Shown: piece after piece, positions 36,719-62,879 of the stretch | Position numbering within the stretch: the first letter of the stretch is position 1 | Layout of the letters: each line of letters begins with the position of its first letter | NCBI GenBank assembly: GCA_937869105.1 | Contig: CALMKZ010000002.1 | Span: forward strand, 4,499 to 68,498 | Source of the DNA: an uncultured Cytophagales bacterium | GTDB taxonomy: Bacteria > Bacteroidota > Bacteroidia > Cytophagales > Cyclobacteriaceae | Direction of reading: 5' to 3' | Length of the DNA stretch: 64,000 nt | Notes under the pieces: generated by a model | Database searches by the model: none | The model's input: only the letters and a program-made list of their open reading frames with translations | Told to the model about the DNA's origin: nothing | Translations under genes and position numbers: made by a program

Positions 36719-39418
36719 ATGGCACTACTTCCGGGCTTCGAACACGATATCTTTATCTCCTACCGTCAGAAAGACAATAAGTACGATGGTTGGGTGACTG
36801 AATTTGTGACCAACTTGAAGAAAGAACTGGAGGCCACCTTCAAGGATGATGTGTCCATCTACTTTGATGAAAATCCGCATGACGGATTGCTGGAGACCCA
36901 TAACGTAGACTTGTCGCTCAGCAAACGACTAAACAGTTTGATCGTCATTCCCATTGTATCGCAAACCTATTGCGATCCCAAGAGCTTTGCCTGGCAACAT
37001 GAATTTCTGGCATTCATCAACCTCATACGCAGCGATCGGTTCGGACAGCACGTGAAGCTTACCAATGGCAACGTAGCCAGCCGGATATTGCCTGTACGCA
37101 TACATGACCTGGAACCAGAAGACCTGGCCCTTTTTGAAAAAGAGACCGGGGAGGTAATGCGAAGTATAGACTTTATCTACAGGCTTCCTGGCGTAAACCG
37201 GCAATTGCGTGCCAAGGACGACGAACAAATCAAGGTTTCAAATCAGATTTTGTATCGCGATCAAATCAACAAGGTTGCCCGGGCCATAAAAGAAATTGTT
37301 CAAGGCATTAAACAGGTTGATCAGCCCGCGCAAGTCGTGACCTCCAAAGCCGCATCTGCTGCTGCCGTACCTACCCCTGTCACTGCGCAACCGCGCAAGG
37401 CGTTCCGGGTTAATAAACCACTGGTGATAGGCACAAGTTTGCTCGTTATCGCAGCCATATTTGCCCCAGGTTTGTACAAAAAATACAGGGTACGAAACGA
37501 AGTTATTCCTGCTATCCAACAGTTAATCAATGACAACTTCGCCGCTCCATCAAAAGCATTTGAATTGGCACTTGAGGCATCTGAAATAATTCCTGATGAT
37601 TCTGCATTGATCCGGCTCTGGCCGAAGATATCAAGAAAGGTAAAGTGGGAGACCAACCCGGCAGGTGCTGATATTTATTGGAAGGATTATGAACGTCCGG
37701 AAGATCCATGGAAAAAACTTGGTACGACACCCATGTCGGAAGTGCGCATTCCATTTGGCGTCAGATTCAAGATCGAGCTACCTGGGTTTGAAACTGTACA
37801 CGTAACTACCGGACGGATAGGCACAGAGAATAAGTTAAAACTCGACAGTATCGGTACCATTCCTGCCAACATGGTCAGGATACCTGCCCGAACTACGCCT
37901 ATGCTGATTGTCGGACTTGAACAGTATCAAGGACAGCCGGTACCTGAATTTTTGGCCGACAAATACGAAGTAACTAATGCGCAATACAAGCAATTTGTCG
38001 ACGCCGGTGGCTATCAGAACCCAACCTATTGGTCCAACAAGTTTGTTAAAGACGGAAAGGTCATTTCGAGAGAAGAAGCACTAAAGAGTTTCATTGACAA
38101 GACGGGAAAGCCCGGACCCGCAGGCTGGGAAGTAGGCAGTTATCCCAATGGATTGGAGAATCATCCGGTTTCCGGCATCTCCTGGTATGAAGCCGATGCC
38201 TATGCACGCTTTGCCGGCAAACAGCTGCCAACAGTATTCCATTGGAGTGTGATTGCCGAAACCAATCGTACCATGGTGATTGTCCCCAAGAGTAACTACA
38301 ATGGACAATCTACTGTTCCGGTGGGAAGCCTTGAAGGTATTTCGTCATTTGGCATCTATGATCTGGCAGGAAATGTCAGGGAATGGTGCGCCAACCCTTC
38401 CGGTACAAATGGTCTTTATTTTTCCCTGGGAGGAGCTTGGAATGATGCGACGTACGCTTTCAATGACGCCTACATGGTCCAGGCCATGGATCGTTCCGTA
38501 GGAAATGGATTCCGTTGCATCCAATTACTTAAAGAAGACCAGAGTTTCTCGGAGACCTCCAGACCGGTCTCTATGATGTTCAGGGACTACACCAAAGAAA
38601 AGCCCGTTGACGACCAGACTTTTGAATTCTTCCGGCGACAATATGCTTACGACCCGGGGCCAATCAATGCCCAGGTCAAAGTGATGGCCGACACCGGTAT
38701 CTGGCATGTGGAACAAATCACAATGGATGCCGCATACAACAAAGAGCGGTTGGTGATTTATCTGTTTATGCCCAGGAACGGAAAGGCCCCTGTTCAGCCC
38801 GTGATCTATTATCCGGGATCAAACGTTATTTATGAACAGAAATTCACCAACACCTATGTGAACCGTTTGGAATTCATCATTCGCAGTGGTCGGGCCATCG
38901 CGATACCGGTTTTCAAAGGAACCTTTGAACGTCATGATGAGTTGAAATCAGATTTGCCTGACAACACGGTATTCTATAAAGACCATGTCATCATGTGGCG
39001 CAAAGACCTGAGCCGAACCATCGACTACCTGGAGACCCGAACGGATATCGCCGCCAATAAGATCGGATACTTCGGCTGGAGCTGGGGCGGATATCAGGGA
39101 GGAATCCTACCAGCCATTGAAACACGCATCCAGTGTATTGTACTCCATGTTGGCGGCATGGTGATGAATCCCTCTTTACCGGAAGTGGATCAACTCAACT
39201 TCCTGCCCCGGGTAAAACAACCCGTGCTGATGCTCAACGGGAAACATGATCTATTCTTTCCGGTAGAAACGGCACAGAAACCTATGTTCAACTTATTGGG
39301 GACACCCGCCAAAGACAAAAAGATCATTATCTATGATGCCGGGCATTTAGTGCCCCGAACGGAACTGATCCGCGAAACACTTTTGTGGTATGATAAGTAC
39401 CTCGGCACTGTGAACTAA
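36719..39418 (+). CDS. Multidomain membrane protein: N-terminal TIR, one TM, PEGA-like domain, FGE/SUMF1-sulfatase-modifying-like domain, C-terminal alpha/beta hydrolase
   Basis: The TIR domain reads DIFISYRQKDNKYDGWV...IVSQTYCDPKSFAWQHEFLAF. The TM segment is PLVIGTSLLVIAAIFAPGLY. The FGE motifs are YEVTNAQYKQFV, PVSGISWYEADAYARFAGKQLPT and GIYDLAGNVREWC. The hydrolase nucleophile elbow is GYFGWSWGG. Confidence 0.75.
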   Translation: MALLPGFEHDIFISYRQKDNKYDGWVTEFVTNLKKELEATFKDDVSIYFDENPHDGLLETHNVDLSLSKRLNSLIVIPIVSQTYCDPKSFAWQHEFLAFINLIRSDRFGQHVKLTNGNVASRILPVRIHDLEPEDLALFEKETGEVMRSIDFIYRLPGVNRQLRAKDDEQIKVSNQILYRDQINKVARAIKEIVQGIKQVDQPAQVVTSKAASAAAVPTPVTAQPRKAFRVNKPLVIGTSLLVIAAIFAPGLYKKYRVRNEVIPAIQQLINDNFAAPSKAFELALEASEIIPDDSALIRLWPKISRKVKWETNPAGADIYWKDYERPEDPWKKLGTTPMSEVRIPFGVRFKIELPGFETVHVTTGRIGTENKLKLDSIGTIPANMVRIPARTTPMLIVGLEQYQGQPVPEFLADKYEVTNAQYKQFVDAGGYQNPTYWSNKFVKDGKVISREEALKSFIDKTGKPGPAGWEVGSYPNGLENHPVSGISWYEADAYARFAGKQLPTVFHWSVIAETNRTMVIVPKSNYNGQSTVPVGSLEGISSFGIYDLAGNVREWCANPSGTNGLYFSLGGAWNDATYAFNDAYMVQAMDRSVGNGFRCIQLLKEDQSFSETSRPVSMMFRDYTKEKPVDDQTFEFFRRQYAYDPGPINAQVKVMADTGIWHVEQITMDAAYNKERLVIYLFMPRNGKAPVQPVIYYPGSNVIYEQKFTNTYVNRLEFIIRSGRAIAIPVFKGTFERHDELKSDLPDNTVFYKDHVIMWRKDLSRTIDYLETRTDIAANKIGYFGWSWGGYQGGILPAIETRIQCIVLHVGGMVMNPSLPEVDQLNFLPRVKQPVLMLNGKHDLFFPVETAQKPMFNLLGTPAKDKKIIIYDAGHLVPRTELIRETLLWYDKYLGTVN

Positions 39419-54282: not shown

Positions 54283-55440
54283 TTAGTTCACCTCCAACTC
54301 ATCTTTCGCCGGCAATTTCGGAAACGGAGCATGCGGCTCGGTCTGATACCAATATACCACGCTTGCAATATCTGATTGTTGCGGAAGGTATCTTCCATCA
54401 TAACGCCACCCCAGATCCTGAATGGTCACTTTGAGGTCCGAATCAAACCGGATCGGGTCCGTGATATGCCAGCGATACATCCCAAAGCGCTGCATCACCT
54501 GATAATGTCCATCACCGCGGATTACCTGATGAAGGCCGGCATACGGCGTACAGAATTCGGTGTAGTGTGATTCCTCCACCCCGGCACTATTCTTTTTGTT
54601 TGTGTCAAAATCATAACTGCCGCAGAAGTAATCTTCTGTGCCCGTGCCATTGATGGTGGGATATTCTTTATCACCATCCATGAAGAACTTAATCTCCCCT
54701 TCACCCCACCAGCCATTATTGTGCACACCCCAGGCCATGTAAGTACCCACATATTGCCCTTTGCCTTTGATGTTATCGACCAGGGTATACACATCCTTGT
54801 ACTTCACCGGATTGGTACGGCGGAACTGTGCATGGAAATAGGCCGCATCATCAGGAACCTTGGTCAGCGTGTAATCCACCTGATAGAACATCCGCACCTT
54901 TTCGTGATCGAGGTTTTCGAGGGTGATCCTGCATTTCTTCCGGAACGGCATTACCCAATAACTATTAAATGCGCTACCCGGATTCACACATATGGCCAGT
55001 GAATTGAGATGGGCATATTGCTCCCATCCCATGCCAAAGAAGTCCCCCAGCGGGGCCTCCACTGACGGTGTCGGTTCATCATCCCAATAAATCCGCAAAA
55101 TGGAAAACCGCCAATGCCCTGTTGGTGTAAGCCAGATGTGTTGCACAGCGCCAGGTCCGGTAATGTCTGCAAGCACGGCCGTCTTGCCCGGCTCAATCCA
55201 TATGTAGGGGCTCACCTTCCAGCCCTGACCTAGGTCCTTCGCATTGCGGGACGCCACTCCTTCCTTATCCATTCCTCCTTTGCCCTTTTCACCCGTCGGG
55301 TTCTCGGCACTGATGGATCTGGATTTTGCATCCGATAACCGGAAGAGATTGCCCATGTTGGTACTCAATCCATTGAATCCGCCATCCTGGGCGCACAACC
55401 TGACGCTGATGAGCATTGCAGCAATAAATAGTGTTTTCAT
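54283..55440 (-). CDS. DUF2961 (GH172-type) protein, secreted
   Basis: 385 aa with a signal peptide. Motifs seen: GTGTEDYF, and the WYQ..P pattern near the C-terminus. Confidence 0.75.
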   Translation of the reverse strand: MKTLFIAAMLISVRLCAQDGGFNGLSTNMGNLFRLSDAKSRSISAENPTGEKGKGGMDKEGVASRNAKDLGQGWKVSPYIWIEPGKTAVLADITGPGAVQHIWLTPTGHWRFSILRIYWDDEPTPSVEAPLGDFFGMGWEQYAHLNSLAICVNPGSAFNSYWVMPFRKKCRITLENLDHEKVRMFYQVDYTLTKVPDDAAYFHAQFRRTNPVKYKDVYTLVDNIKGKGQYVGTYMAWGVHNNGWWGEGEIKFFMDGDKEYPTINGTGTEDYFCGSYDFDTNKKNSAGVEESHYTEFCTPYAGLHQVIRGDGHYQVMQRFGMYRWHITDPIRFDSDLKVTIQDLGWRYDGRYLPQQSDIASVVYWYQTEPHAPFPKLPAKDELEVN

Positions 55441-55477: not shown

Positions 55478-57226
55478 TTGTTTCTGTCTGACTGCAGCCT
55501 GAATCCCACAGAACATATTAACAACTTGTTGAATCAAGGGCGCTACCTGGAAGCGCGTACCCTGACCACCCGGCAATCAGCGAATTCTTCGGAACTCAGG
55601 ATAAAGCAATTGCATGCATTGGCACTTTCCAAATCCGGTACCCCACAAGCCGCAGTTGAATTTTTTGAACCCATCTACCACGAACATCCCGAAGATGCGG
55701 AGACGGCCGGTATCATGGGTGGCATCTATAAAGAATTGTTCAGACAAACGCGCCAACAATCTTTTGCCATTCTTTCGCGCGATGCCTATCAGAACAATTT
55801 TACAATCACAAGAAATTATTACACAGGCATCAATGCAGCCACGATGTCAGCGATCGCCGGCAAATTTCAACGAGGCCGTGAACTGGCCCAGGAAGTAATT
55901 GCGCTGCTCCCGGAACAACCCGCTGACTTCTGGGAACTGGTGACAAAGGCAGAAGCCGTGTTACTCAACAAAGATCCACGCCAAGCGGTCTCTTTGTATT
56001 ATCAGGCGCACCAGCTGGCCGGCCCCGATTGGGGCAAGCTCAACATTGTTTATAATCAGTTGTGGATGCTGAACCACTATCTGCTGGTGCCAGCCGAAAT
56101 CCTGAAACTATACAGCCCCCCTACGGTTGCTGTGCTGGTCGGACATATGATCGACAGCCCTACCCGTGCTGTCCCGCGCTTTCCCGCATCGGTTGAAGGC
56201 AAAGTACAGGAGGAACTCAACGCTGTTATCAAGGCCTCCAATATCAAAATCGGATATACGTCCCTTGCCTGTGGAAGTGATATAATGTTTGCTGAGGCTG
56301 TTCTTGCATCCGGGGGAGAAATCAATCTCTACGTTCCGTTCCGCCAGACGGATTTCATCGAGACGAGCGTCCGCTTTGCAGGTGAAAGCTGGGTTCAGCG
56401 CTTCCATCAATTGGCCGACCACCATTCCGTTCACTTCCTCACCCGCGAAGGATACCTCGGTAATGACGAGCTCTTTTCATTTCACGGCAGAATACTTTTC
56501 GGACTGGCCACTTTGCGGGGAAAACTCTTGCACGCTGAACCTCACCTGGTGACCATCCTGTCTGAACGGGACCGCACCCTCAAAGAAGGAGGTACGCGAG
56601 ATCTGCTGAAGCTTTGGCCCTTTCCTAAACACACCCATCACATCGATCCATCCAAATGGTTGCCACTTGCTCCTGCCCAAAAGGAATCCGCACCTGCGGA
56701 AACCGTTCCCGGCGGACAACCCAATCGGTTTGTGGCCTATATGGTTACCCTTTCGTTCAGTGGTCCCATTATGCTGGAAGTAACCCATGCCGCCGGTAAA
56801 ATGCAGGAAGAAACTTTGCAAGAATTAATTGCACTGGAACTTGAACCTGACCGGGTTCGCGCTGGTTTTACGTCATCGCATCGGGCCATTCGTTTCGCCA
56901 AAGACCTCGTACAGCTCATTCATCAGCGTAGCAAGCAGTCCGGATACCGGATTGGATTACATGCGGGTCCCGTTACCATCCAACATGTAAATGGAAAAAA
57001 GATGATGACGGGTGATCACGCGACGTTATTGAACAAGATCTACGACCTGACCATCGCCGGAAGCATTTGCGCCAGCGAAACGTTCGCTGCCTCCCTTGCC
57101 CTGGATGCCGGCACCTACGGTTTCGTTCAGACCGGTCAGGTACATCTCGGCGAAGAACTGGGTGACCACAACATCTATAGTATTGAATGGACGGGCAGCG
57201 AGGTTTCACAACATGTGCGCCGATGA
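55478..57226 (+). CDS. Three-module cytosolic protein: DUF4071/TPR-like N-terminus, SLOG/LOG-like Rossmannoid middle, degenerate class III nucleotide-cyclase-like C-terminus
   Basis: N-terminal module: ETAGIMGGIYKELF. Middle module: VAVLVGHMIDSPTRAVPRFP...LACGSDIMFAEAVLASGGEINLYVPF...SWVQRFHQL. C-terminal module: YRIGLHAGPV...GDHATLLNKIYDL, but there is no Asp at the expected first metal site (YMVTLSFSG). The ORF begins at a TTG. Confidence 0.55.
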   Translation: MFLSDCSLNPTEHINNLLNQGRYLEARTLTTRQSANSSELRIKQLHALALSKSGTPQAAVEFFEPIYHEHPEDAETAGIMGGIYKELFRQTRQQSFAILSRDAYQNNFTITRNYYTGINAATMSAIAGKFQRGRELAQEVIALLPEQPADFWELVTKAEAVLLNKDPRQAVSLYYQAHQLAGPDWGKLNIVYNQLWMLNHYLLVPAEILKLYSPPTVAVLVGHMIDSPTRAVPRFPASVEGKVQEELNAVIKASNIKIGYTSLACGSDIMFAEAVLASGGEINLYVPFRQTDFIETSVRFAGESWVQRFHQLADHHSVHFLTREGYLGNDELFSFHGRILFGLATLRGKLLHAEPHLVTILSERDRTLKEGGTRDLLKLWPFPKHTHHIDPSKWLPLAPAQKESAPAETVPGGQPNRFVAYMVTLSFSGPIMLEVTHAAGKMQEETLQELIALELEPDRVRAGFTSSHRAIRFAKDLVQLIHQRSKQSGYRIGLHAGPVTIQHVNGKKMMTGDHATLLNKIYDLTIAGSICASETFAASLALDAGTYGFVQTGQVHLGEELGDHNIYSIEWTGSEVSQHVRR

Positions 57227-57678
57227 GAATTCGCATCACACCCGCTTACACCGTTAGTTTTCTGCTGCTCCTCATCGTCATGATGGAACTGCACGAATTA
57301 GCACACATCACCGTTGGTCGGTGGTTGTGCGGATGCTGGGGACCCAGGGACTTTAATGTCTGGAACCTGTGTGATGGTTGTGAGTCAACACAACCCCACG
57401 CCTGGGTAGCCACTCTTACCGGACCGCTGTTTTCTTTTGTGATCATGTATCTGGGTATCCTGGGACTCCGCTCGACAGATCCAGTCCGCAAGTCAATCGC
57501 ATTCTCATTGATCTTTGCCAATATCCCGTTCGGTAGAATCACCACCGTGATGATGGGCGGTGGCGATGAAATGGTGGTGCTGAGAAGCTTGCTTCCGTCT
57601 CTTGACAGGTCATCACAAATTTGGATTGGTAGTGCGCTGCTGCTGATCGTTGGCGTGCCTCCGATCTATAAAGCATAA
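57223..57678 (+). CDS. Membrane-embedded HExxH protein (M50B-like putative zinc metalloprotease)
   Basis: The start has an ATGA overlap with the upstream stop. HELAH lies within the first TM segment, there is a later GGGDE, and the protein has about 4 TM segments. Confidence 0.5.
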   Translation: MRIRITPAYTVSFLLLLIVMMELHELAHITVGRWLCGCWGPRDFNVWNLCDGCESTQPHAWVATLTGPLFSFVIMYLGILGLRSTDPVRKSIAFSLIFANIPFGRITTVMMGGGDEMVVLRSLLPSLDRSSQIWIGSALLLIVGVPPIYKA

Positions 57679-57906
57679 ATGGCCGTCAGTAACCGTCGGT
57701 CCTGGCTCTATATCCTGGGGTTTATGACCGTGCCTTTAGCGTTCTTGCTGGTGTACACCCTGATCGGACTCAACTCACTGCTGAAGTCAGGGTTCATGAG
57801 TGAACCCTGGATATTGGGCACTCCACTGCTGATTACCCTGCACACGGCAATTGCCGCAGCATGGTTGCTGGTCGTCAGGAAGAAATTGGGAACCCTCGCC
57901 GATTAG
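57679..57906 (+). CDS. Small 2-TM membrane protein
   Basis: 75 aa. The ATG immediately follows the upstream TAA. Confidence 0.45.
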   Translation: MAVSNRRSWLYILGFMTVPLAFLLVYTLIGLNSLLKSGFMSEPWILGTPLLITLHTAIAAAWLLVVRKKLGTLAD

Positions 57907-60900
57907 CGTTGCACCACCAATCGTCCGGTTCTTACCCGTACCTGACCCGGAAGGTTTACTGTAAGCCGATAAACGTATACTCCTTCAAACAACGGATTTC
58001 CAAATGCGTCGGTGGCCGGGAGCACAATGGTATTCGTTCCTGGATGAAGAACCGGTAGATCCGACGCTGAAAGATCACGCACCAGACTGCCAGTTGCAGA
58101 GAACAGTTGCAACGAGTAATCGGATGGATCAGTAAGGGACTGCAGTTCAACGGTAAACCGGAATAAATCTGATGCCGGGTTGGGATAAACTGATTTCACG
58201 GCAAACCCATGGGTATCTTCCACCACAAAGGAAACTTCATACGGCAAAGGTCCACTGCTGTTGCCACTGCCATCAACGGCCTGTGCTGAAAGCCGGTACG
58301 TGCCTGGTTGCAGGTCTGTTGGATTAATCTCTACCGAAAAATCTGATGACGCCGTAGCCGGGTGCCACTGCACATGGGCTTTGTCTGAAAAGACAATGCG
58401 GCGGTACACGCAGTTCCGGGTACAAGGGTATTGCATAAAAAGGTCTATACCGAGCGTATCCGTTTTCAATCGGAAAGGGTTGGCGTCGCGAACGCGAATA
58501 AGCATGCGTGGGGAAGAAGAAACCACGTCGCCGTTCAATATAGTTCGCCCATCGATCGTAACGTCCAGTACCGGTGGTGTCTGGTCCCGGTTCACCTGGA
58601 GGCGATACTGCAGCGACAAGACGTTATTGTCGTATCCTGGTTCCGGAAGTATGCGGGGGTTCGCAAATACGGTTACATCGTTGCTCCCGGCCTTACCCAG
58701 GGTGGATGTTCGAACGATAAAGTGTGTGGTGTCGGAAGGAGCCGGAGCCTTGATCCGGAACCGATTCACTTCCCGGTTACCTGCATCGGAGGAAAATATG
58801 TCCACCGAAACCGTGATGGAATCCGTAAAGTTGATCGCCGAAAGATTTGCAAAGCCATAGGTCGCCGACCAGGGCTGCCCTTCCTGCAACACTTCCCCGG
58901 ATCTTGTTCCATGGTAGGTCAACATCCCTTCTGCCATTGGAGTGTACGAAACCAACCAATGTCGCAAACGAACCGGTGACAAGTCGATAGAGTCTGCAGA
59001 AGAAAGTTTCAAGCGCAGGTATGGATATGTGACGGCACTAATGTCTGTCAGGAGGGTACTACCGCCAACGGCTGTTTTCAAAGGCGTGGCGTTACCATTG
59101 ATATCCAACCCCTCCACCGAAACGGAGAATTGGTCCGATGGACCAACATCTTTAAAGTGCTGGGTTAGCTGACTCCAGGCTTGAGCCGGACCGATGGTCA
59201 CCGTGGCCATAGACCCGGAAGCCCCCCGGCCCGTAATGGTGCGGCTTGCAGAAAGCGATTGCGCATTGACCGGTGAGGTCGTTGGCCGGACTACCTTCGC
59301 GGCATTGGCCGGTGCCCCTTTCATGCCAAAAATAATAAACGGCTCACCGGGTGAAAGCGTGGACAACTGCCCCGCACCAATACCAAGCTGGGTGAGGGCC
59401 GTCTTCACATTCGTTGACCACGAGGCATAGCCGGCATCGCCCATCGAATACAAAAGCACCGAGTCACCCGCCTTCACCTGGCTTATCCACGTCAGCAGAT
59501 CATTGCTGCCAGTTTCAAGTTCATTCGACAAAAAGTTATTAATCACCTGCGGTGCCCGGCCGCATGCGCGCGGATCGAAGAAACTCTCAAAATTAATTCC
59601 TGCGTAGGGTGCCGAAGAGAATTTATCAAATGCGATCAGGTTCAGGGAGTTGTTTCTGCATGGTTGCTCCTGCGTTGCAATATTCAGTTCATCGCCATTG
59701 AGCTTGAGCGAAACGCTGGTAAATGGATTGCCATTCGCAGAACCAAACGTGGTGATATCCAGCGACGAAGTTGTTTGTGGAAAAACAAGCCTGCGTATCC
59801 CCTCGTTCCGTGTCAAACCGGTAAGCGCATTGTCGGCCGTTTGGGCGAAAGACAACTGGGCCCAACCTTCTGCTCCTTGTTTGATATAGGAAAAGGTACT
59901 GACCGTCCAACTGGTGCTTTCTCCTGATAAGGGATTGGCCAATCGCGTGCGCCAGAAATAAGTGGTTGAATCACTCGACAGCAGACTGATCGATAAACGC
60001 GCCAGCACCTTTCCGGTCGCCACCTGCCGCTTCAAATAAGGACTGTCGAAAGTGGCTGCGGTATCTACCTCAACCTGAAAAGACCTTGAGGCTGACATGA
60101 GATCGGTATGCTGAAACATCAGGTCTACTGCAGACTTGTTAAGTACCGCGTAATTCACCGGAAAGATATTGCGCGTGCCATTGGTCGGAATAAAAAAGCC
60201 AATGGTAGCCTTGTTGTTGGTCTCATTGAGTTCGGGAACTGTGTGTGCCGGGTCCAATTCAATGGTAAAGGCATTTTGTCCGAACTCTTTATCAGTCCTG
60301 CCGCGGTGCACCACATATTGCAATACATCCTGATACATGACAGGTGCATAGGTGGTGTCCTTCACAATGGTTGTATTGTCGCTAAGGGTCCGCGTGATGC
60401 GCACCGTCAACGGTGTTTGTTGCGCACGTCCAAAGTTCCGGACCGTGAAGTTAATAGCAAATGACTTCGACAATGCATTGACCGGCTTGCTGTCGAGGCT
60501 TTGAACGGACACGGTTCCCGCATTGATTTCGTAATCCGGCGCCGATGCACCAAACAAAGACACAGCTGGATCACCTAGCAGCACCATTTGCTGCACTTGC
60601 GAAACGGATTGCAAATCAACGCCAGATGAGAGATATCTGATCGCGACCTCCTGCTGTACTTCGCCGATGCCGCGGTGCAGGAAGGTGGAATCACCATAGG
60701 CCACTGAATAAAAAATATCAGAATATTGTTTAAGGGTTGTTGTGAAGCCGAAGGAACTATGCGCAATAAACAGCCTTGCACCTTTACCCGATGTAAGCAT
60801 CCAGTCCTCGCCAAATGAAGTTCGGTTAGAAAAGAACTGACCTGCATTACATCCATTGATCAGAAAGCCCGGGTACTTGCCTTTGTTATTATAACCTAAC

Positions 60901-62879
60901 TTCGGGTCACTCACATTGCCGATATCAATGTCAATGGTGCCGGGACCTGAGTGACCAAAAAAGGTAATCAGGTTGAGTCCCCGATTAACCTGGTCCTTGA
61001 CATTGACCAGTTCAACATTCAGGCTTTGCTTGCCGATGGTTTCAACTTTTCCGCCCAGATAGAATCCCTCGGCTATTGATTTGAAACCATCGGTATACGA
61101 ACGAAAAACGGCCGGTTCGCCTTCATGAATCCCTCCGCTGAGGTGCAACAGGTTCTTTCTCCACAGCGCATCAAAGGGCGCAGCTTCCGTTTCCTTTATC
61201 TTGTTAAGGTATCCCGCAACCTGATCGGCAGTGCTTGCAGTCAATCTACCTGTGGGAATTGCAGGCACATGGGGTACGCCGTTCAAGCCGGCGCTGAAGG
61301 CCATATCACTCGCCGGCCATCCTGCCGTGGGTACCAGGTCATGAAAATCCACTGAGGTGATTGATGCATTGCGATAAAATCCCTGTGTGACATCCAATCC
61401 TTTGCCAATCAAAAAAAGGAATCGGGTGTGGCCGCCACTTATCAGGTACTTGGCAAACTGAAAGATGGCCCTGGGTGAAGTCTCACCATAGTTGAATTGG
61501 TCATACAACTGATCGATATTCATCACGAGTGTGTCGTATTGTCCCCCCGCTGCCGAAGCCCTGTAGGCCGCATAGGCCTTCACAGGATCAGCATAACCCG
61601 ATGCACTTTTTCTTAAGGAACGGTGCGTCACGACCACATATCCGGCCGTAGACGGTTGCACGGATCTGAAGGTCACCTTTCGAAGTACCGAAGAAAGCGT
61701 CGAAGCACTGATGTAGATCGTGCGTTGATTATTAGTGCCATCAATTACCACGCCCGTTCCGCCGGATACCGGGGTTGTTCCCAACTGTCCCACATTTTCC
61801 GGACTGGATATATCCCAGACACGGGCATTGGCTGGCGCATTCGCGACGACAAGGTATGATCTGCCATTACCGTTCAGTTCCAGGTTAAGAATCTTTTCAG
61901 TGACGCCGGTGAGATCAAAGTTGCGTGCGTATGACAAGCGTACATAACATACATTGATCTGATCACGGACTCCACTGTTGATCAACTGAGTCCGCACCAC
62001 AAGCTTACCATCAGAACCGATATCGGACCAGTTCAAGCCCAATTTTACGGTTGCCGCGGAATACCCGGCCAGGGAAGTGGTCGTCACCAATCGAGCCGAA
62101 CCACCTGTAGGTCCCACATAGATATTAACCGAATGTGACTGATCCGACTGACCCAACAATAGCACCTCGAGTTCTGGGCCACTTGCGGCGGTGAATTGAC
62201 CAGTCAGGTTGTTGATGGTAAAATCGGCAAATCCTGCGCATCCTCCCGAGCCAACACATACGCCCGGACTCGTCCAGCCCTCTCCTGCGTCAAAGGCAGT
62301 GTCTTCTATCTCGTCACCCAGCGTAAGCCCATAGGCATAAGCACTGGTCAGCAACAACAACTTCTCTTCATAGGCATAATTCTCTTTTAGCAGACCGCCA
62401 GCGTTTGGCTGTGAAAAAGACGACATCCGTTTGCCCAGAACGGGAAGGGGATTCCACGTTAAAAAATAGGCAGCGGTATCACTGTATAAATTATAATAGG
62501 TATGCGGTTGTGTGCCGGGCTTGTAAAGATCGCCGTCAAGGGTACCATCATTTTTCCTTCCATAGAACTCGATATAATCTGACGTGTCAAAAACAGCATC
62601 ATTTTCTCCGCTTACAAAAATGGCCTGCTCTTTACCGCGGTGGTATAAATTAATCCTGCGCGGGTCAATGCCCGAAAGGGGTAATCCTGCGGCCTGAAGA
62701 TCCGCGTAGGTTAATTTATATATGCCAGTCTGGGCGACTGGTATCTTGTAGTAAGTCTGCCCGTAGTTGATCCACTCATTAGAAAACTGGCCACTGGAGG
62801 GGGTGGCATGGGCCATCAGCACCAGGACGCAAACCGCCTTTACCGCACTTCTCCATACCGTTTGGTCCACCATCATCAC
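57903..62879 (-). CDS. Peptidase C25 (gingipain-like) family giant protein, PorU/PorU2-like, with T9SS C-terminal sorting domain
   Basis: 1658 aa with a signal peptide. The N-terminus reads EWINYGQTYYKIPVAQTGIYKLTY. Candidate catalytic motifs are ITFFGHSGPG (His) and FLINGCNAGQFF (Cys). The C-terminal domain reads VYPNPASDLFRF...GVYVYRLTV. Confidence 0.65.
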   Translation of the reverse strand: MMMVDQTVWRSAVKAVCVLVLMAHATPSSGQFSNEWINYGQTYYKIPVAQTGIYKLTYADLQAAGLPLSGIDPRRINLYHRGKEQAIFVSGENDAVFDTSDYIEFYGRKNDGTLDGDLYKPGTQPHTYYNLYSDTAAYFLTWNPLPVLGKRMSSFSQPNAGGLLKENYAYEEKLLLLTSAYAYGLTLGDEIEDTAFDAGEGWTSPGVCVGSGGCAGFADFTINNLTGQFTAASGPELEVLLLGQSDQSHSVNIYVGPTGGSARLVTTTSLAGYSAATVKLGLNWSDIGSDGKLVVRTQLINSGVRDQINVCYVRLSYARNFDLTGVTEKILNLELNGNGRSYLVVANAPANARVWDISSPENVGQLGTTPVSGGTGVVIDGTNNQRTIYISASTLSSVLRKVTFRSVQPSTAGYVVVTHRSLRKSASGYADPVKAYAAYRASAAGGQYDTLVMNIDQLYDQFNYGETSPRAIFQFAKYLISGGHTRFLFLIGKGLDVTQGFYRNASITSVDFHDLVPTAGWPASDMAFSAGLNGVPHVPAIPTGRLTASTADQVAGYLNKIKETEAAPFDALWRKNLLHLSGGIHEGEPAVFRSYTDGFKSIAEGFYLGGKVETIGKQSLNVELVNVKDQVNRGLNLITFFGHSGPGTIDIDIGNVSDPKLGYNNKGKYPGFLINGCNAGQFFSNRTSFGEDWMLTSGKGARLFIAHSSFGFTTTLKQYSDIFYSVAYGDSTFLHRGIGEVQQEVAIRYLSSGVDLQSVSQVQQMVLLGDPAVSLFGASAPDYEINAGTVSVQSLDSKPVNALSKSFAINFTVRNFGRAQQTPLTVRITRTLSDNTTIVKDTTYAPVMYQDVLQYVVHRGRTDKEFGQNAFTIELDPAHTVPELNETNNKATIGFFIPTNGTRNIFPVNYAVLNKSAVDLMFQHTDLMSASRSFQVEVDTAATFDSPYLKRQVATGKVLARLSISLLSSDSTTYFWRTRLANPLSGESTSWTVSTFSYIKQGAEGWAQLSFAQTADNALTGLTRNEGIRRLVFPQTTSSLDITTFGSANGNPFTSVSLKLNGDELNIATQEQPCRNNSLNLIAFDKFSSAPYAGINFESFFDPRACGRAPQVINNFLSNELETGSNDLLTWISQVKAGDSVLLYSMGDAGYASWSTNVKTALTQLGIGAGQLSTLSPGEPFIIFGMKGAPANAAKVVRPTTSPVNAQSLSASRTITGRGASGSMATVTIGPAQAWSQLTQHFKDVGPSDQFSVSVEGLDINGNATPLKTAVGGSTLLTDISAVTYPYLRLKLSSADSIDLSPVRLRHWLVSYTPMAEGMLTYHGTRSGEVLQEGQPWSATYGFANLSAINFTDSITVSVDIFSSDAGNREVNRFRIKAPAPSDTTHFIVRTSTLGKAGSNDVTVFANPRILPEPGYDNNVLSLQYRLQVNRDQTPPVLDVTIDGRTILNGDVVSSSPRMLIRVRDANPFRLKTDTLGIDLFMQYPCTRNCVYRRIVFSDKAHVQWHPATASSDFSVEINPTDLQPGTYRLSAQAVDGSGNSSGPLPYEVSFVVEDTHGFAVKSVYPNPASDLFRFTVELQSLTDPSDYSLQLFSATGSLVRDLSASDLPVLHPGTNTIVLPATDAFGNPLFEGVYVYRLTVNLPGQVRVRTGRLVVQR

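What the first reader, a model, noticed from the sequence alone, without database searches (positions are those of the whole stretch)
55478..57906. Translationally coupled 3-gene cassette: DUF4071-like/SLOG-like/degenerate cyclase protein + HExxH membrane protein + 2-TM peptide
Gene 1 (582 aa) joins three parts. The first is a helical TPR-like N-terminus with the GG.YKE.F signature I associate with DUF4071 (TRAF-binding-type) domains. The second is a Rossmannoid block (GHMID..R..PRFP ... ACGSDIMFAEAVL..GGE..LYVPF ... W.QRF) of the kind seen in SLOG/LOG-superfamily nucleotide-binding modules. The third is a class III cyclase-homology domain with RIGLHAGPV but without the first metal-binding Asp, so it is probably a sensor rather than an enzyme. 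Its stop overlaps (ATGA, 57223-57226) the start of a 4-TM HELAH protein. That protein's TAA is directly followed by the ATG of a 75-aa 2-TM protein. Fusions of SLOG-type domains with membrane effectors have been linked to nucleotide-dependent conflict and signalling systems. I do not recognise this exact combination as a described system.
Basis: inference. Interest (0 to 1): 0.65.

Follow-up and report, generated by a model that had tools for sequence, protein, structure and literature searches.

The report
Sensor protein plus one broken membrane gene
The "three-gene cassette" is really two genes: a soluble sensor protein (TPR-S, SLOG fold and a dead cyclase domain) whose relatives sit beside TIR and STAND immune-type genes, and one HExxH membrane-protein gene that a very recent stop codon has cut in two, and the pair is not a conserved system.

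Summary
Its three domain calls for gene 1 hold: TPR-S/DUF4071 (Pfam, above cut-off), a YpsA-like SLOG fold (Foldseek top hits YpsA, DprA, ShosA, LOG), and a class III cyclase fold that lacks metal-Asp 1, the catalytic Asn and the Arg.

Genes 2 and 3 are one gene. Homologues are single proteins of about 230 aa. An allele identical to the window's, apart from Tyr in place of the stop at codon 152, exists in other assemblies. The window carries TAC->TAA in a cytoplasmic loop. This split allele is real: at least 23 contigs carry it, and the 8 fetched are 100% identical to the window.

The gene 1-gene 2 pairing is confined to a seven-member Cyclobacteriaceae clade and is lost twice within it. It is absent from about 70 other gene 1 loci. 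Among 401 Bacteroidota genomes the two genes are adjacent only in this one.

The recurrent partners of gene 1 are different. TIR-like membrane receptors lie within 4 kb in 30 of 80 loci; one lies 16 kb upstream in this window. nSTAND1 NTPases lie directly upstream in 18 of 80. Distant homologues keep an intact cyclase inside a TIR-nSTAND1 operon.

Gene 1 is probably a degenerate receiver of a TIR-made nucleotide. The HExxH protein is a decaying accessory neighbour.

The parts
55478..57226 (+). Gene 1, 582 aa: a soluble protein with TPR-S, a SLOG fold and a degenerate cyclase-homology domain. The start is probably the TTG at 55478. NCBI records aa, starting at 55529, which would cut conserved residues.
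55505..56110 (+). Residues ~10-211: all-helical TPR-S / MAP3K_TRAF_bd (DUF4071) repeat, with the GGIYKELF signature at residues 81-88.
   Evidence: Pfam PF20308 5.8e-17 and PF13281 1e-9. Eleven helices with pLDDT above 90. Invariant G78, I79, G81, K85 and F88.
56111..56662 (+). Residues ~212-395: YpsA-like SLOG Rossmannoid domain. It is the most conserved part of the protein, and the GxD motif is G266-S-D268.
   Evidence: AF2 pLDDT 89.3. Foldseek hits YpsA 2nx2 (E 5e-6, TMq 0.61, TMt 0.67), DprA, ShosA, LOG and the MoCo carrier. Mean column identity 68%. No Pfam or PDB sequence hit.
56723..57193 (+). Residues ~416-572: class III cyclase-homology fold, catalytically degenerate (metal-Asp 1 -> Ser, Asn -> Thr, Arg -> Lys, dimer-arm insertion absent). 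It is the least conserved part of the protein.
   Evidence: Foldseek 1ybt/1ybu/5oyh, E 8e-8 to 1e-6, TMt 0.67-0.75. PF00211 scores only 15.7 bits against a cut-off of 21.9. Alignment with intact homologues.
57223..57226 (+). ATGA stop/start overlap of gene 1 and the membrane-protein gene.
   Evidence: L017 has the same overlap, L022 has TGATG, and L020 has an 18-nt gap.
57223..57678 (+). N-terminal 151 codons (predicted TM1-TM4) of a gene of about 227 codons for a six-TM HExxH membrane protein. HELAH is at 57292-57306. It also carries a Cys-rich outer loop, RDFNVW and GGGDE.
57676..57678 (+). Premature TAA (codon 152) replacing a conserved Tyr, in the predicted cytoplasmic loop between TM4 and TM5.
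57679..57906 (+). The cut-off C-terminal 75 codons (TM5-TM6) of the same gene. They can be translated on their own only because an ATG happens to follow the stop.
36719..39418 (+). Candidate signalling partner, outside the finding's coordinates: an 899-aa protein with an N-terminal TIR-like domain, one TM segment, and FGE-sulfatase plus hydrolase ectodomains. It belongs to the family found beside gene 1 in 30 of 80 related loci.

Best explanation
Two genes lie here, not three.

Gene 1 (shown). It encodes a cytoplasmic three-domain protein: a TPR-S helical repeat, a YpsA-like SLOG nucleotide-binding fold, and a class III cyclase-homology domain that has lost its catalytic residues.

Family context (shown). 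It belongs to a Cytophagales branch of a cross-phylum family. Distant members keep an intact cyclase and sit in operons with a TIR protein and an nSTAND1 NTPase. Cytophagales members often sit beside membrane proteins with a TIR-like N-terminal domain.

Function of gene 1 (inferred). The protein receives a TIR-made, NAD-derived nucleotide through TPR-S and/or SLOG, by analogy with Thoeris ThsA (SLOG) and ThsI (TPR). Because the cyclase is dead in this branch, the output cannot be a cyclic nucleotide. More likely it is dimerisation or scaffolding through the pseudo-cyclase, or nucleotide processing by the very conserved SLOG domain. In this genome the likeliest signal source is the TIR-like receptor 16 kb upstream, or its one paralogue elsewhere in the genome.

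The downstream gene (shown). It is a single gene for a 227-aa, six-TM protein of a rare, unannotated family. It was inserted between gene 1 and the convergent C25-peptidase gene in a small Cyclobacteriaceae clade and lost again twice. In this clonal strain a one-base TAC->TAA change has cut it in two.

Function of the downstream gene (inferred). It is a membrane-embedded zinc metallopeptidase whose site faces the periplasm. It is dispensable for gene 1.
For: Gene 1 domains:
- Pfam.
- AF2 models with pLDDT 90.5 and 89.3.
- Foldseek hits to cyclases and to YpsA, DprA, ShosA and LOG.
- The GxD motif is invariant (motif defined in PMC6459960).
- Catalytic residues are replaced.

Family context:
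- Homologues P0268, P0269, P0271 and P0274 share the SLOG block and carry real PF00211 domains with the FADIxGFS, GD and NRAAR motifs.
- L134 holds a TIR_2 - nSTAND1 - TPR-S/SLOG/cyclase operon.
- nSTAND1 plus a 268-aa TM protein lie directly upstream in 18 of 80 loci, across several clades.
- TIR-like proteins lie within 4 kb in 30 of 80 loci, 11 of them on the same strand with a gap under 160 nt. The own genome has only two such genes.
- The TIR-like call rests on sub-threshold TIR_2 hits in 11 of 16 members, flax L6 TIR as the top PDB hit, and hhalign E 2.5e-4 to a real TIR_2 protein.
- ThsA's SLOG domain binds 3'cADPR, and ThsI's TPR is presumed to perceive cADPR (bioRxiv 10.64898/2025.12.03.692087).

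One gene split in two.

Pairing not conserved.
Against: - In the window itself no TIR or nSTAND1 gene adjoins gene 1. The nearest TIR-like gene is 16 kb away with unrelated genes in between.
- The TIR assignment of the neighbour family is sub-threshold.
- No ligand binding was tested, and which domain senses what is unknown.
- There is no PADLOC hit.
- The ATGA overlap, kept in L017 and near-kept in L022, argues that genes 1 and 2 are co-transcribed in this clade, so a lineage-specific functional link cannot be excluded.
- The metallopeptidase reading of gene 2 rests only on invariant motifs. Profile comparison with DUF3267 and M50B found nothing beyond HExxH, and no structure was predicted.
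Confidence: 0.6

Rival explanations
1. Gene 1, the HExxH membrane protein and the 2-TM peptide form a dedicated, translationally coupled conflict or signalling system, in which the SLOG sensor controls a membrane effector.
For: - ATGA overlap.
- The pair recurs in the window, in L017, L020 and L022/L002, and on the contigs of P0015/P0128, P0017/P0129 and P0008/P0232.
- Elsewhere in the family gene 1 is often coupled to another multi-TM protein (TM268, 18 of 80 loci).
Against: - Gene 3 is a fragment of gene 2.
- Gene 2 is missing at the same junction in L021 and L023, inside the same clade.
- It is missing from about 70 other gene 1 loci.
- Of 37 genomes of the genus, 17 have gene 1, but only this one has gene 2 beside it (one other carries a 27%-identical relative on another contig).
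- In 401 Bacteroidota genomes, 5 have full-length gene 1, 6 have gene 2, and 2 have both. The two genes are adjacent only in this genome.
- Gene 2 homologues stand alone, or next to a histidine kinase, in Spirosoma and Mucilaginibacter.
- No PADLOC hit.
Confidence: 0.12
2. The split is tolerated. After the TAA, ribosomes restart at the adjacent ATG. The 4-TM catalytic piece and the 2-TM hairpin then assemble into a working two-chain protein, so the allele is neutral or even favoured.
For: - The ATG directly follows the stop.
- That Met codon was already present in intact sister alleles (P0183, P0431).
- The cut lies in a predicted cytoplasmic loop, and all invariant residues stay on the first piece.
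- The split allele is the most often assembled one: 24 contigs, listed in 39 index blocks, from many samples.
Against: - The eight contigs fetched that carry the split allele are identical over 2429 nt, so the allele is too young for selection to have left any trace.
- The gene has been lost outright twice in the same clade, which fits a dispensable gene on its way out.
Confidence: 0.3
3. Gene 1 is a housekeeping regulator with no link to TIR signalling. For example, it could be a YpsA-like nucleotide- or redox-responsive factor that uses the TPR for protein partners. The neighbouring TIR-like and STAND genes would then be inherited synteny.
For: - B. subtilis YpsA, the closest fold match, acts in cell division and oxidative stress (PMC6459960).
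- The window flanks are metabolic or secretory genes: GH172/DUF2961 and a C25 peptidase.
- 26 of the 78 proteins in the tree show none of the recurrent neighbours.
Against: - The TIR + nSTAND1 + TPR-S/SLOG/cyclase combination recurs in a very distant homologue, with 42% identity in the SLOG block only, and in several separate Cytophagales clades.
- With only two TIR-like genes per 4.2-Mb genome, adjacency in 30 of 80 loci is far above chance.
- TPR-S is described as a domain of TIR-type signalling.
Confidence: 0.15

Closest known systems
Thoeris effectors ThsA (SIR2-SLOG, type I) and ThsI (TPR + CMP-hydrolase, type VIII)
   Same: A soluble protein carrying a SLOG domain (as in ThsA) and a TPR of the kind predicted for TIR signalling (as in ThsI). 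Relatives are encoded beside TIR-domain genes.
   Different: - Both putative sensor domains are in one chain.
- The third domain is a cyclase fold, dead in this branch, not a SIR2 or hydrolase effector.
- The TIR-like partners are large membrane receptor-like proteins with variable ectodomains.
- A STAND NTPase often joins in.
- No TIR gene is adjacent in this window.
- No PADLOC hit, and no defence phenotype is known.
- Whether ThsI's TPR is PF20308 was not tested here.
YpsA (B. subtilis, PDB 2nx2), founding member of the YpsA clade of the SLOG superfamily
   Same: Best structural match of the middle domain (E 5e-6, TMq 0.61, TMt 0.67). The GxD/E signature is kept as G266-x-D268.
   Different: - 12% identity and no sequence-level hit to YpsA or any Pfam SLOG family.
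- A 14-residue conserved loop (GHMID.P.R..PRFP) follows strand 1.
- The domain is fused between TPR-S and a cyclase fold rather than standing alone.
Animal ASK kinases (MAP3K5/6/15), central TRAF-binding TPR region (Pfam MAP3K_TRAF_bd / DUF4071)
   Same: The N-terminal helical repeat matches PF13281 and PF20308 above cut-off. From my own knowledge, ASK also joins this TPR to a Rossmannoid domain of the TIR-DrHyd-SLOG class (Pfam DRHyd-ASK).
   Different: There is no kinase and no PH domain. The domain order is reversed (TPR first, then SLOG). The protein is bacterial and cytoplasmic.
Class III adenylyl/guanylyl cyclases (PF00211; e.g. Rv1900c, 1ybt)
   Same: Same fold (TMt 0.73-0.75). The RIGLHAGPV strand is kept. 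Distant family members have full catalytic motifs.
   Different: The Pfam score is below cut-off. Metal-Asp 1, the Asn and the Arg are replaced, and the dimer-arm insertion is missing. It is a pseudo-enzyme.
Membrane-embedded HExxH peptidase families (site-2 protease M50, M50B, DUF3267)
   Same: An HExxH inside the first TM helix, plus a later invariant acidic pair (D115-E116) that could supply the third metal ligand.
   Different: No Pfam or NCBIfam hit. hhalign to DUF3267 and M50B aligns only the HExxH motif, at probabilities of 1.8% and 0.4%, in the same range as unrelated control families (1.1%, 0.1%). The family also has its own invariant RDFNVW and Cys-rich loop.

Membership tests
TPR-S (PF20308) / MAP3K_TRAF_bd = DUF4071 (PF13281) | Profile match above the curated cut-off | tested here: met
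   62.6 bits against 27.6, and 38.4 bits against 24.1. The same two families are precomputed for nearly all homologues.
SLOG superfamily (SMF/DprA-LOG), YpsA-like | Rossmannoid alpha/beta fold closest to SLOG members | tested here: met
   Model of the domain alone, pLDDT 89.3. Top PDB matches are YpsA, DprA (x3), ShosA, LOG and the MoCo carrier protein.
SLOG superfamily (SMF/DprA-LOG), YpsA-like | GxD/E substrate-binding signature after strand 2 (PMC6459960) | tested here: met
   G266 and D268 are invariant in 63 full-length sequences and 82 domain sequences.
SLOG superfamily (SMF/DprA-LOG), YpsA-like | Sequence-profile match to a described SLOG family | tested here: not met
   No Pfam or NCBIfam hit on residues 205-400. 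The domain profile finds nothing in PDB sequences at E <= 10. It is therefore an undescribed family-level clade.
Class III nucleotide cyclase (PF00211) | Cyclase-homology fold | tested here: met
   Foldseek 1ybt/1ybu, E 8e-8, TMt 0.73-0.75.
Class III nucleotide cyclase (PF00211) | Profile score above cut-off, plus the catalytic set (two metal Asp, Asn, Arg) | tested here: not met
   15.7 bits against 21.9. Asp 1 -> Ser, Asn -> Thr and Arg -> Lys; only Asp 2 is kept.
Thoeris-type TIR signalling system | A TIR-domain gene in the same operon as the sensor/effector gene | tested here: not met
   Not met in the window: the nearest TIR-like gene is 16 kb upstream. Met in relatives: 30 of 80 loci within 4 kb, and the L134 operon.
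Thoeris-type TIR signalling system | Anti-phage activity and binding of a TIR-made nucleotide | not testable with these tools
   No experiment was possible. PADLOC models give no hit.
nSTAND1-centred conflict systems (Kaur et al.) | An adjacent nSTAND1 NTPase gene | tested here: not met
   Absent next to gene 1 in the window. Two nSTAND1-like genes lie on other contigs, and the TM268 partner is absent from the genome. Present in 18 of 80 related loci.
Site-2 protease / M50B / DUF3267 membrane metallopeptidases | Profile similarity beyond the HExxH motif | tested here: not met
   No Pfam or NCBIfam hit for 46 members. hhalign probability 1.8% and 0.4%, in the same range as unrelated controls (1.1%, 0.1%). 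The comparison alignments were small (6 and 2 sequences), so this is a weak negative.
The proposed three-gene cassette | Three separate genes, co-conserved in order across genomes | tested here: not met
   Genes 2 and 3 are one gene. The pairing is confined to a 7-member clade with two losses. Adjacent in 1 of 401 phylum genomes.

The most novel reading that the evidence does not exclude
Cytophagales may carry a receptor pathway laid out like a Toll-like receptor. Single-pass membrane proteins with variable outer domains (FGE/lectin-like, TPR, TPR+HD) and a cytoplasmic TIR-like head would make an NAD-derived messenger. That messenger would be read by the TPR-S/SLOG protein, sometimes gated by an nSTAND1 NTPase. 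In this branch the ancestral cyclase output has been replaced by a pseudo-enzyme, so the relay would end in something other than a cyclic nucleotide. It may serve environmental or cell-envelope sensing rather than phage defence.
Probability: 0.25. Interest if true: 0.7.

Novelty: new variant of a known kind. Interest (0 to 1): 0.4.

Why it matters
The cassette as proposed does not exist, so it should not be pursued as a new three-gene system.

Gene 1 is still informative. It is a well-conserved, dead-cyclase branch of a TPR-S/SLOG/cyclase family that is tied to TIR and STAND genes across phyla and has not been studied experimentally. If the TIR link holds, this branch shows that the sensor half (TPR-S plus SLOG) is kept under strong constraint after the cyclase output is lost. 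That would say which half of the protein carries the essential function. It would also offer a natural loss-of-output control for biochemical work on the active relatives.

The split HExxH gene is a clean, datable example of a nonsense mutation that looks like a translationally coupled gene pair. It is a warning for reading gene order from sequence alone.

Tried and rejected
- Pfam, NCBIfam and PADLOC scans of the three ORFs as given: hits only for the N-terminus of gene 1.
- PDB sequence-profile searches. The whole gene 1 profile gave only marginal cyclase hits at E 0.3. The SLOG block gave none. The HExxH family gave only noise.
- Fold search with the whole gene 1 model: cyclase and TPR hits swamped the list and hid the middle domain. 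I solved this by modelling residues 205-400 alone from 82 cropped homologues.
- Profile search of 1.84 billion representatives with the HExxH family: 322 relatives, all of the same small family, with no bridge to a known family.
- hhalign of that family against DUF3267 and M50B alignments built from relatives' genomes: only the HExxH motif aligned, no better than controls.
- No structure was predicted for the HExxH protein, because both prediction jobs went to gene 1.
- Recoding of TAA was considered and rejected. TAA is the commonest stop of long ORFs, and aragorn finds no suppressor tRNA among 32 tRNAs.
- An assembly error at the TAA was considered and rejected.
- Three papers were not held: Burroughs et al. 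2015 (NAR; tried under both its DOI and a PMC id) and Burroughs & Aravind 2020 (J Bacteriol). My statements about the origin of TPR-S and about DRHyd-ASK therefore rest on my own knowledge and on the sentence quoted.
- A full-text search for TPR-S together with SLOG found nothing.
Full report
**1. What is in the sequence**

The three ORFs exist exactly as described.
- ORF 1: 55478-57226, + strand, TTG start, 582 aa.
- ORF 2: 57223-57678, 151 aa, overlapping the stop of ORF 1 by ATGA.
- ORF 3: 57679-57906, 75 aa, with its ATG straight after the TAA.

The quoted motifs are all present. The flanks are a GH172/DUF2961 gene on the minus strand (54283-55440) and a convergent 1658-aa C25-peptidase gene (57903-62879). 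The stop of that gene overlaps the end of ORF 3. Neither flank is defence-like, and PADLOC models hit none of the three ORFs. The contig comes from a Cyclobacteriaceae (Cytophagales) metagenome-assembled genome.

**2. ORFs 2 and 3 are one gene cut by a recent nonsense mutation**

- In the relative L002/L022 (gene 1 at 60% identity) the downstream gene is a single 234-aa ORF, collinear with ORF 2 plus ORF 3.
- A database search found 155 homologues, nearly all 225-240 aa. The exhaustive profile search found 322 representatives of the same length class.
- At the position of the window's TAA the family has a conserved Tyr (..PPI.KAY..).
- L017, at 94% identity, reads AAA GCA TAC CTG where the window reads AAA GCA TAA ATG.
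- Allele P0431 is identical to the window's two products joined, except Tyr at codon 152. P0183 differs at one further residue.
- The genome search also reads the locus as one 227-residue match with one TAA inside.

The stop is real. The exact 151-aa and 75-aa products occur on 24 and 22 contigs from NCBI, ENA and Logan assemblies. Eight contigs fetched from different samples are 100% identical to the window over all 2429 nt. This is therefore a clonal, widespread strain carrying a very young mutation.

TAA is the commonest stop of long ORFs in this genome, and no suppressor tRNA is present.

Hydropathy and the positive-inside rule predict six TM segments with the N-terminus inside. HExxH lies at the outer end of TM1. 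The four-Cys loop, RDFNVW and GGGDE are on the outer face. The stop lies in the cytoplasmic loop between TM4 and TM5. So the "4-TM protein plus 2-TM peptide" description is accurate, but what it describes are fragments of one protein.

**3. What the membrane protein is**

The invariant columns are E22, H24, E25, H28, C36, R42, D43, F44, N45, W47, C53, P102, R105, D115 and E116. This pattern fits a zinc site built from HExxH plus an acidic third ligand. That is inference only.
- No Pfam or NCBIfam model matches any of 46 members.
- The family profile finds nothing in PDB sequences.
- hhalign against DUF3267 and M50B alignments aligns only the HExxH motif, at probabilities in the same range as unrelated control families.

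The family is rare: 6 of 401 sampled Bacteroidota genomes carry it. I did not model its structure, because both prediction jobs went to gene 1.

**4. Gene 1, domain by domain**

- **Residues 10-211.** These match TPR-S (PF20308, 62.6 bits) and MAP3K_TRAF_bd/DUF4071 (PF13281, 38.4 bits), both above cut-off.
- **Whole protein.** The AF2 model built from 63 homologues has pLDDT 90.5. Its PDB fold search is led by class III cyclases (Rv1900c 1ybt/1ybu, RhoGC 5oyh, mammalian AC), with E 8e-8 to 1e-6 and TM 0.67-0.75 on the target.
- **Residues 205-400.** I modelled these alone from 82 cropped homologues (pLDDT 89.3). The top matches are YpsA 2nx2 (E 5e-6, TMq 0.61, TMt 0.67), DprA 3uqz, ShosA 8zva, LOG 5zbl/5its and the MoCo carrier protein 2iz5. 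All are members of the SMF/DprA-LOG (SLOG) superfamily. The YpsA-clade GxD/E signature (PMC6459960) is kept as invariant G266-x-D268. No described SLOG family matches by sequence, so this is an undescribed clade of a known fold.
- **Conservation.** The SLOG block is the most conserved part (68% mean column identity). The cyclase-like tail is the least conserved.
- **Cyclase residues.** Aligned with distant homologues that have true PF00211 domains, the window protein has Ser for metal-Asp 1, Thr for the catalytic Asn and Lys for the Arg, and it lacks the dimer-arm insertion. Only Asp 2 and the RIGLHAGPV strand remain.

**5. The pairing with the membrane gene is local and unstable**

- A tree of 78 gene 1 proteins puts the window in a fully supported clade of seven.
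- Within that clade the membrane gene follows gene 1 in the window, L017, L020 and L022. The L019 contig ends too early to tell.
- In L021 and L023, gene 1 is followed directly by the convergent C25-peptidase gene. The membrane gene is therefore an insertion/deletion at one junction, and it has been lost twice.
- None of the roughly 70 loci of the 41-47% identity clades has it within 4 kb.
- In the same GTDB genus, 17 of 37 genomes have gene 1 (at E <= 1e-20). Only the own genome has the membrane gene at that locus. One other genome has a 27%-identical relative on another contig.
- Among 401 Bacteroidota genomes, 5 have full-length gene 1, 6 have the membrane gene, and 2 have both. In the second of those two genomes the genes lie on different contigs.
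- Homologues of the membrane gene in Spirosoma and Mucilaginibacter stand next to a histidine kinase or alone, without gene 1.

**6. What gene 1 does travel with**

I clustered the neighbours of 80 gene 1 loci. Two recurrent partners came out.

(i) An nSTAND1 NTPase plus a 268-aa multi-TM protein lie directly upstream on the same strand, with overlapping or near-zero junctions. This occurs in 18 loci spread over several clades. The 268-aa protein is absent from the window's genome. nSTAND1-like genes there lie on other contigs.

(ii) A family of 600-900-aa proteins shares an N-terminal domain of about 200 aa (DIFISYRhkDN ... IPI.SQ.YCD..SFAW..EF), followed by variable C-termini: FGE-sulfatase plus hydrolase, TPR, or TPR plus HD; in the window protein a hydrophobic segment follows the shared domain.
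- They lie within 4 kb of gene 1 in 30 of 80 loci.
- In 11 of those they are on the same strand with a gap under 160 nt.
- The shared domain is TIR-like, at sub-threshold level. TIR_2 hits 11 of 16 members (best E 0.001). The top PDB sequence hit is the flax L6 TIR. hhalign to a genuine TIR_2 protein gives E 2.5e-4 over 126 columns.

The window's protein at 36719-39418 is a member of this family. It is 55% identical over its full length to L083:1215-3956, which sits 44 nt upstream of gene 1 in that genome. The own genome has only two such genes, and one lies 16 kb from gene 1.

More distant homologues tell the same story. They were found with the SLOG block alone, at 30-47% identity, and come from Leptospiraceae, Steroidobacteraceae and others. 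They carry the same TPR-S-SLOG core with a true, motif-complete cyclase. One of them, L134, lies in a TIR_2 - nSTAND1 - TPR-S/SLOG/cyclase operon. Another is convergent with a cNMP-binding protein.

Earlier notes of this scan describe the same trio in other phyla. They are unchecked AI notes. I reached the trio from my own loci before I read them. They did point me to the preprint cited next.

**7. Mechanism**

Known:
- In type I Thoeris a TIR makes 3'cADPR, which binds the SLOG domain of ThsA.

Inferred:
- Gene 1 is a receiver of a TIR-made, NAD-derived nucleotide through TPR-S and/or SLOG.
- In the ancestral form the answer was a cyclic nucleotide.
- In the Cytophagales branch that output is dead. 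The conserved SLOG/TPR-S half must act through dimerisation or scaffolding by the pseudo-cyclase, or through nucleotide processing by SLOG.

I put about 45% on the TIR-receiver step. I put over 90% on the structural statements and on the one-gene reading of ORFs 2 and 3.

The HExxH protein is best seen as an accessory neighbour, co-transcribed in this small clade and now decaying. Whether the two pieces still work together cannot be told from sequence, because the allele is too young.

**8. Novelty and score**

The cassette as proposed is not a real system. Gene 1 is a new variant of a known kind: a Thoeris-like TIR-to-sensor arrangement with TPR-S and SLOG fused to a cyclase fold, here in a dead-cyclase form. 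I found no description of this architecture in the papers I could read. Two papers by Aravind's group that may mention it were not held.

Interest is moderate. Better instances, with TIR and nSTAND1 in one operon, exist elsewhere.

**9. Limits**

- No structure was predicted for the membrane protein.
- The TIR assignment of the neighbour family is sub-threshold.
- Neighbourhood counts are not corrected for phylogeny, although the associations recur in separate clades and in a distant phylum-level homologue.

Noticed in passing
window 36719-39418 (+): An 899-aa protein with a TIR-like N-terminal domain, one TM segment, and FGE-sulfatase plus hydrolase domains. It belongs to the family that sits within 4 kb of gene 1 in 30 of 80 related loci. 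Its full-length orthologue (55% identity) lies 44 nt upstream of gene 1 in L083. The genome has only one other copy (C126:26603-27199).
   Followed up: partly
L134:528-6432; also L001:132-6719 and 17 further loci: Operons of TIR_2 - nSTAND1 - TPR-S/SLOG/cyclase (L134), and of nSTAND1 - 268-aa multi-TM protein - gene 1 homologue with overlapping junctions (18 of 80 Cytophagales loci). The 268-aa protein has no Pfam match.
   Followed up: partly
window 57903-57906: The stop codon of the cut-off C-terminal ORF (TAG, 57904-57906) overlaps the stop of the convergent 1658-aa C25-peptidase gene. No room is left for a terminator between the two.
   Followed up: no
G029:C54:35445-37160 (= L016/L061) and G012:C14:38090-39249: Other gene 1 homologues in the same genus look damaged. 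One has an in-frame TAA. Another is split over two frames, and its match ends at residue 399, before the cyclase-like domain.
   Followed up: no
loci L127-L132 (G209, G341, G444, G146, G090, G363) and three further genomes: In other Bacteroidota families, open frames of mostly 650-695 aa (two are much shorter) match only parts of the gene 1 profile within about positions 47-318 (end of TPR-S plus SLOG). So this SLOG clade also occurs in other, unexamined architectures.
   Followed up: no
L136:7905-8264 (-): A 119-aa cNMP-binding protein is convergent with, and overlaps the end of, the distant gene 1 homologue P0270. This fits a cyclic-nucleotide output in the branches with a better-preserved cyclase.
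   Followed up: no
L004:4355-8214: In Spirosoma sp. HMF4905 the intact HExxH membrane-protein homologue lies between a HisKA/HATPase_c histidine kinase (78-nt gap) and an M43-like peptidase gene. This is a different context from the window's.
   Followed up: no
window 55478 vs 55529: Public records disagree on the start of gene 1: 582 aa in Logan gene calls, 565 aa in two NCBI assemblies. Only TTG codons are available. The shorter call removes residues that are conserved in homologues and form the first TPR helix in the model.
   Followed up: partly
G000:C51:128280-129833 and G000:C74:135572-137101: Two nSTAND1-like NTPase genes of about 1066-1069 aa (34-38% identity to the L001 NTPase head) lie elsewhere in the window's genome. 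I did not examine their neighbours.
   Followed up: no
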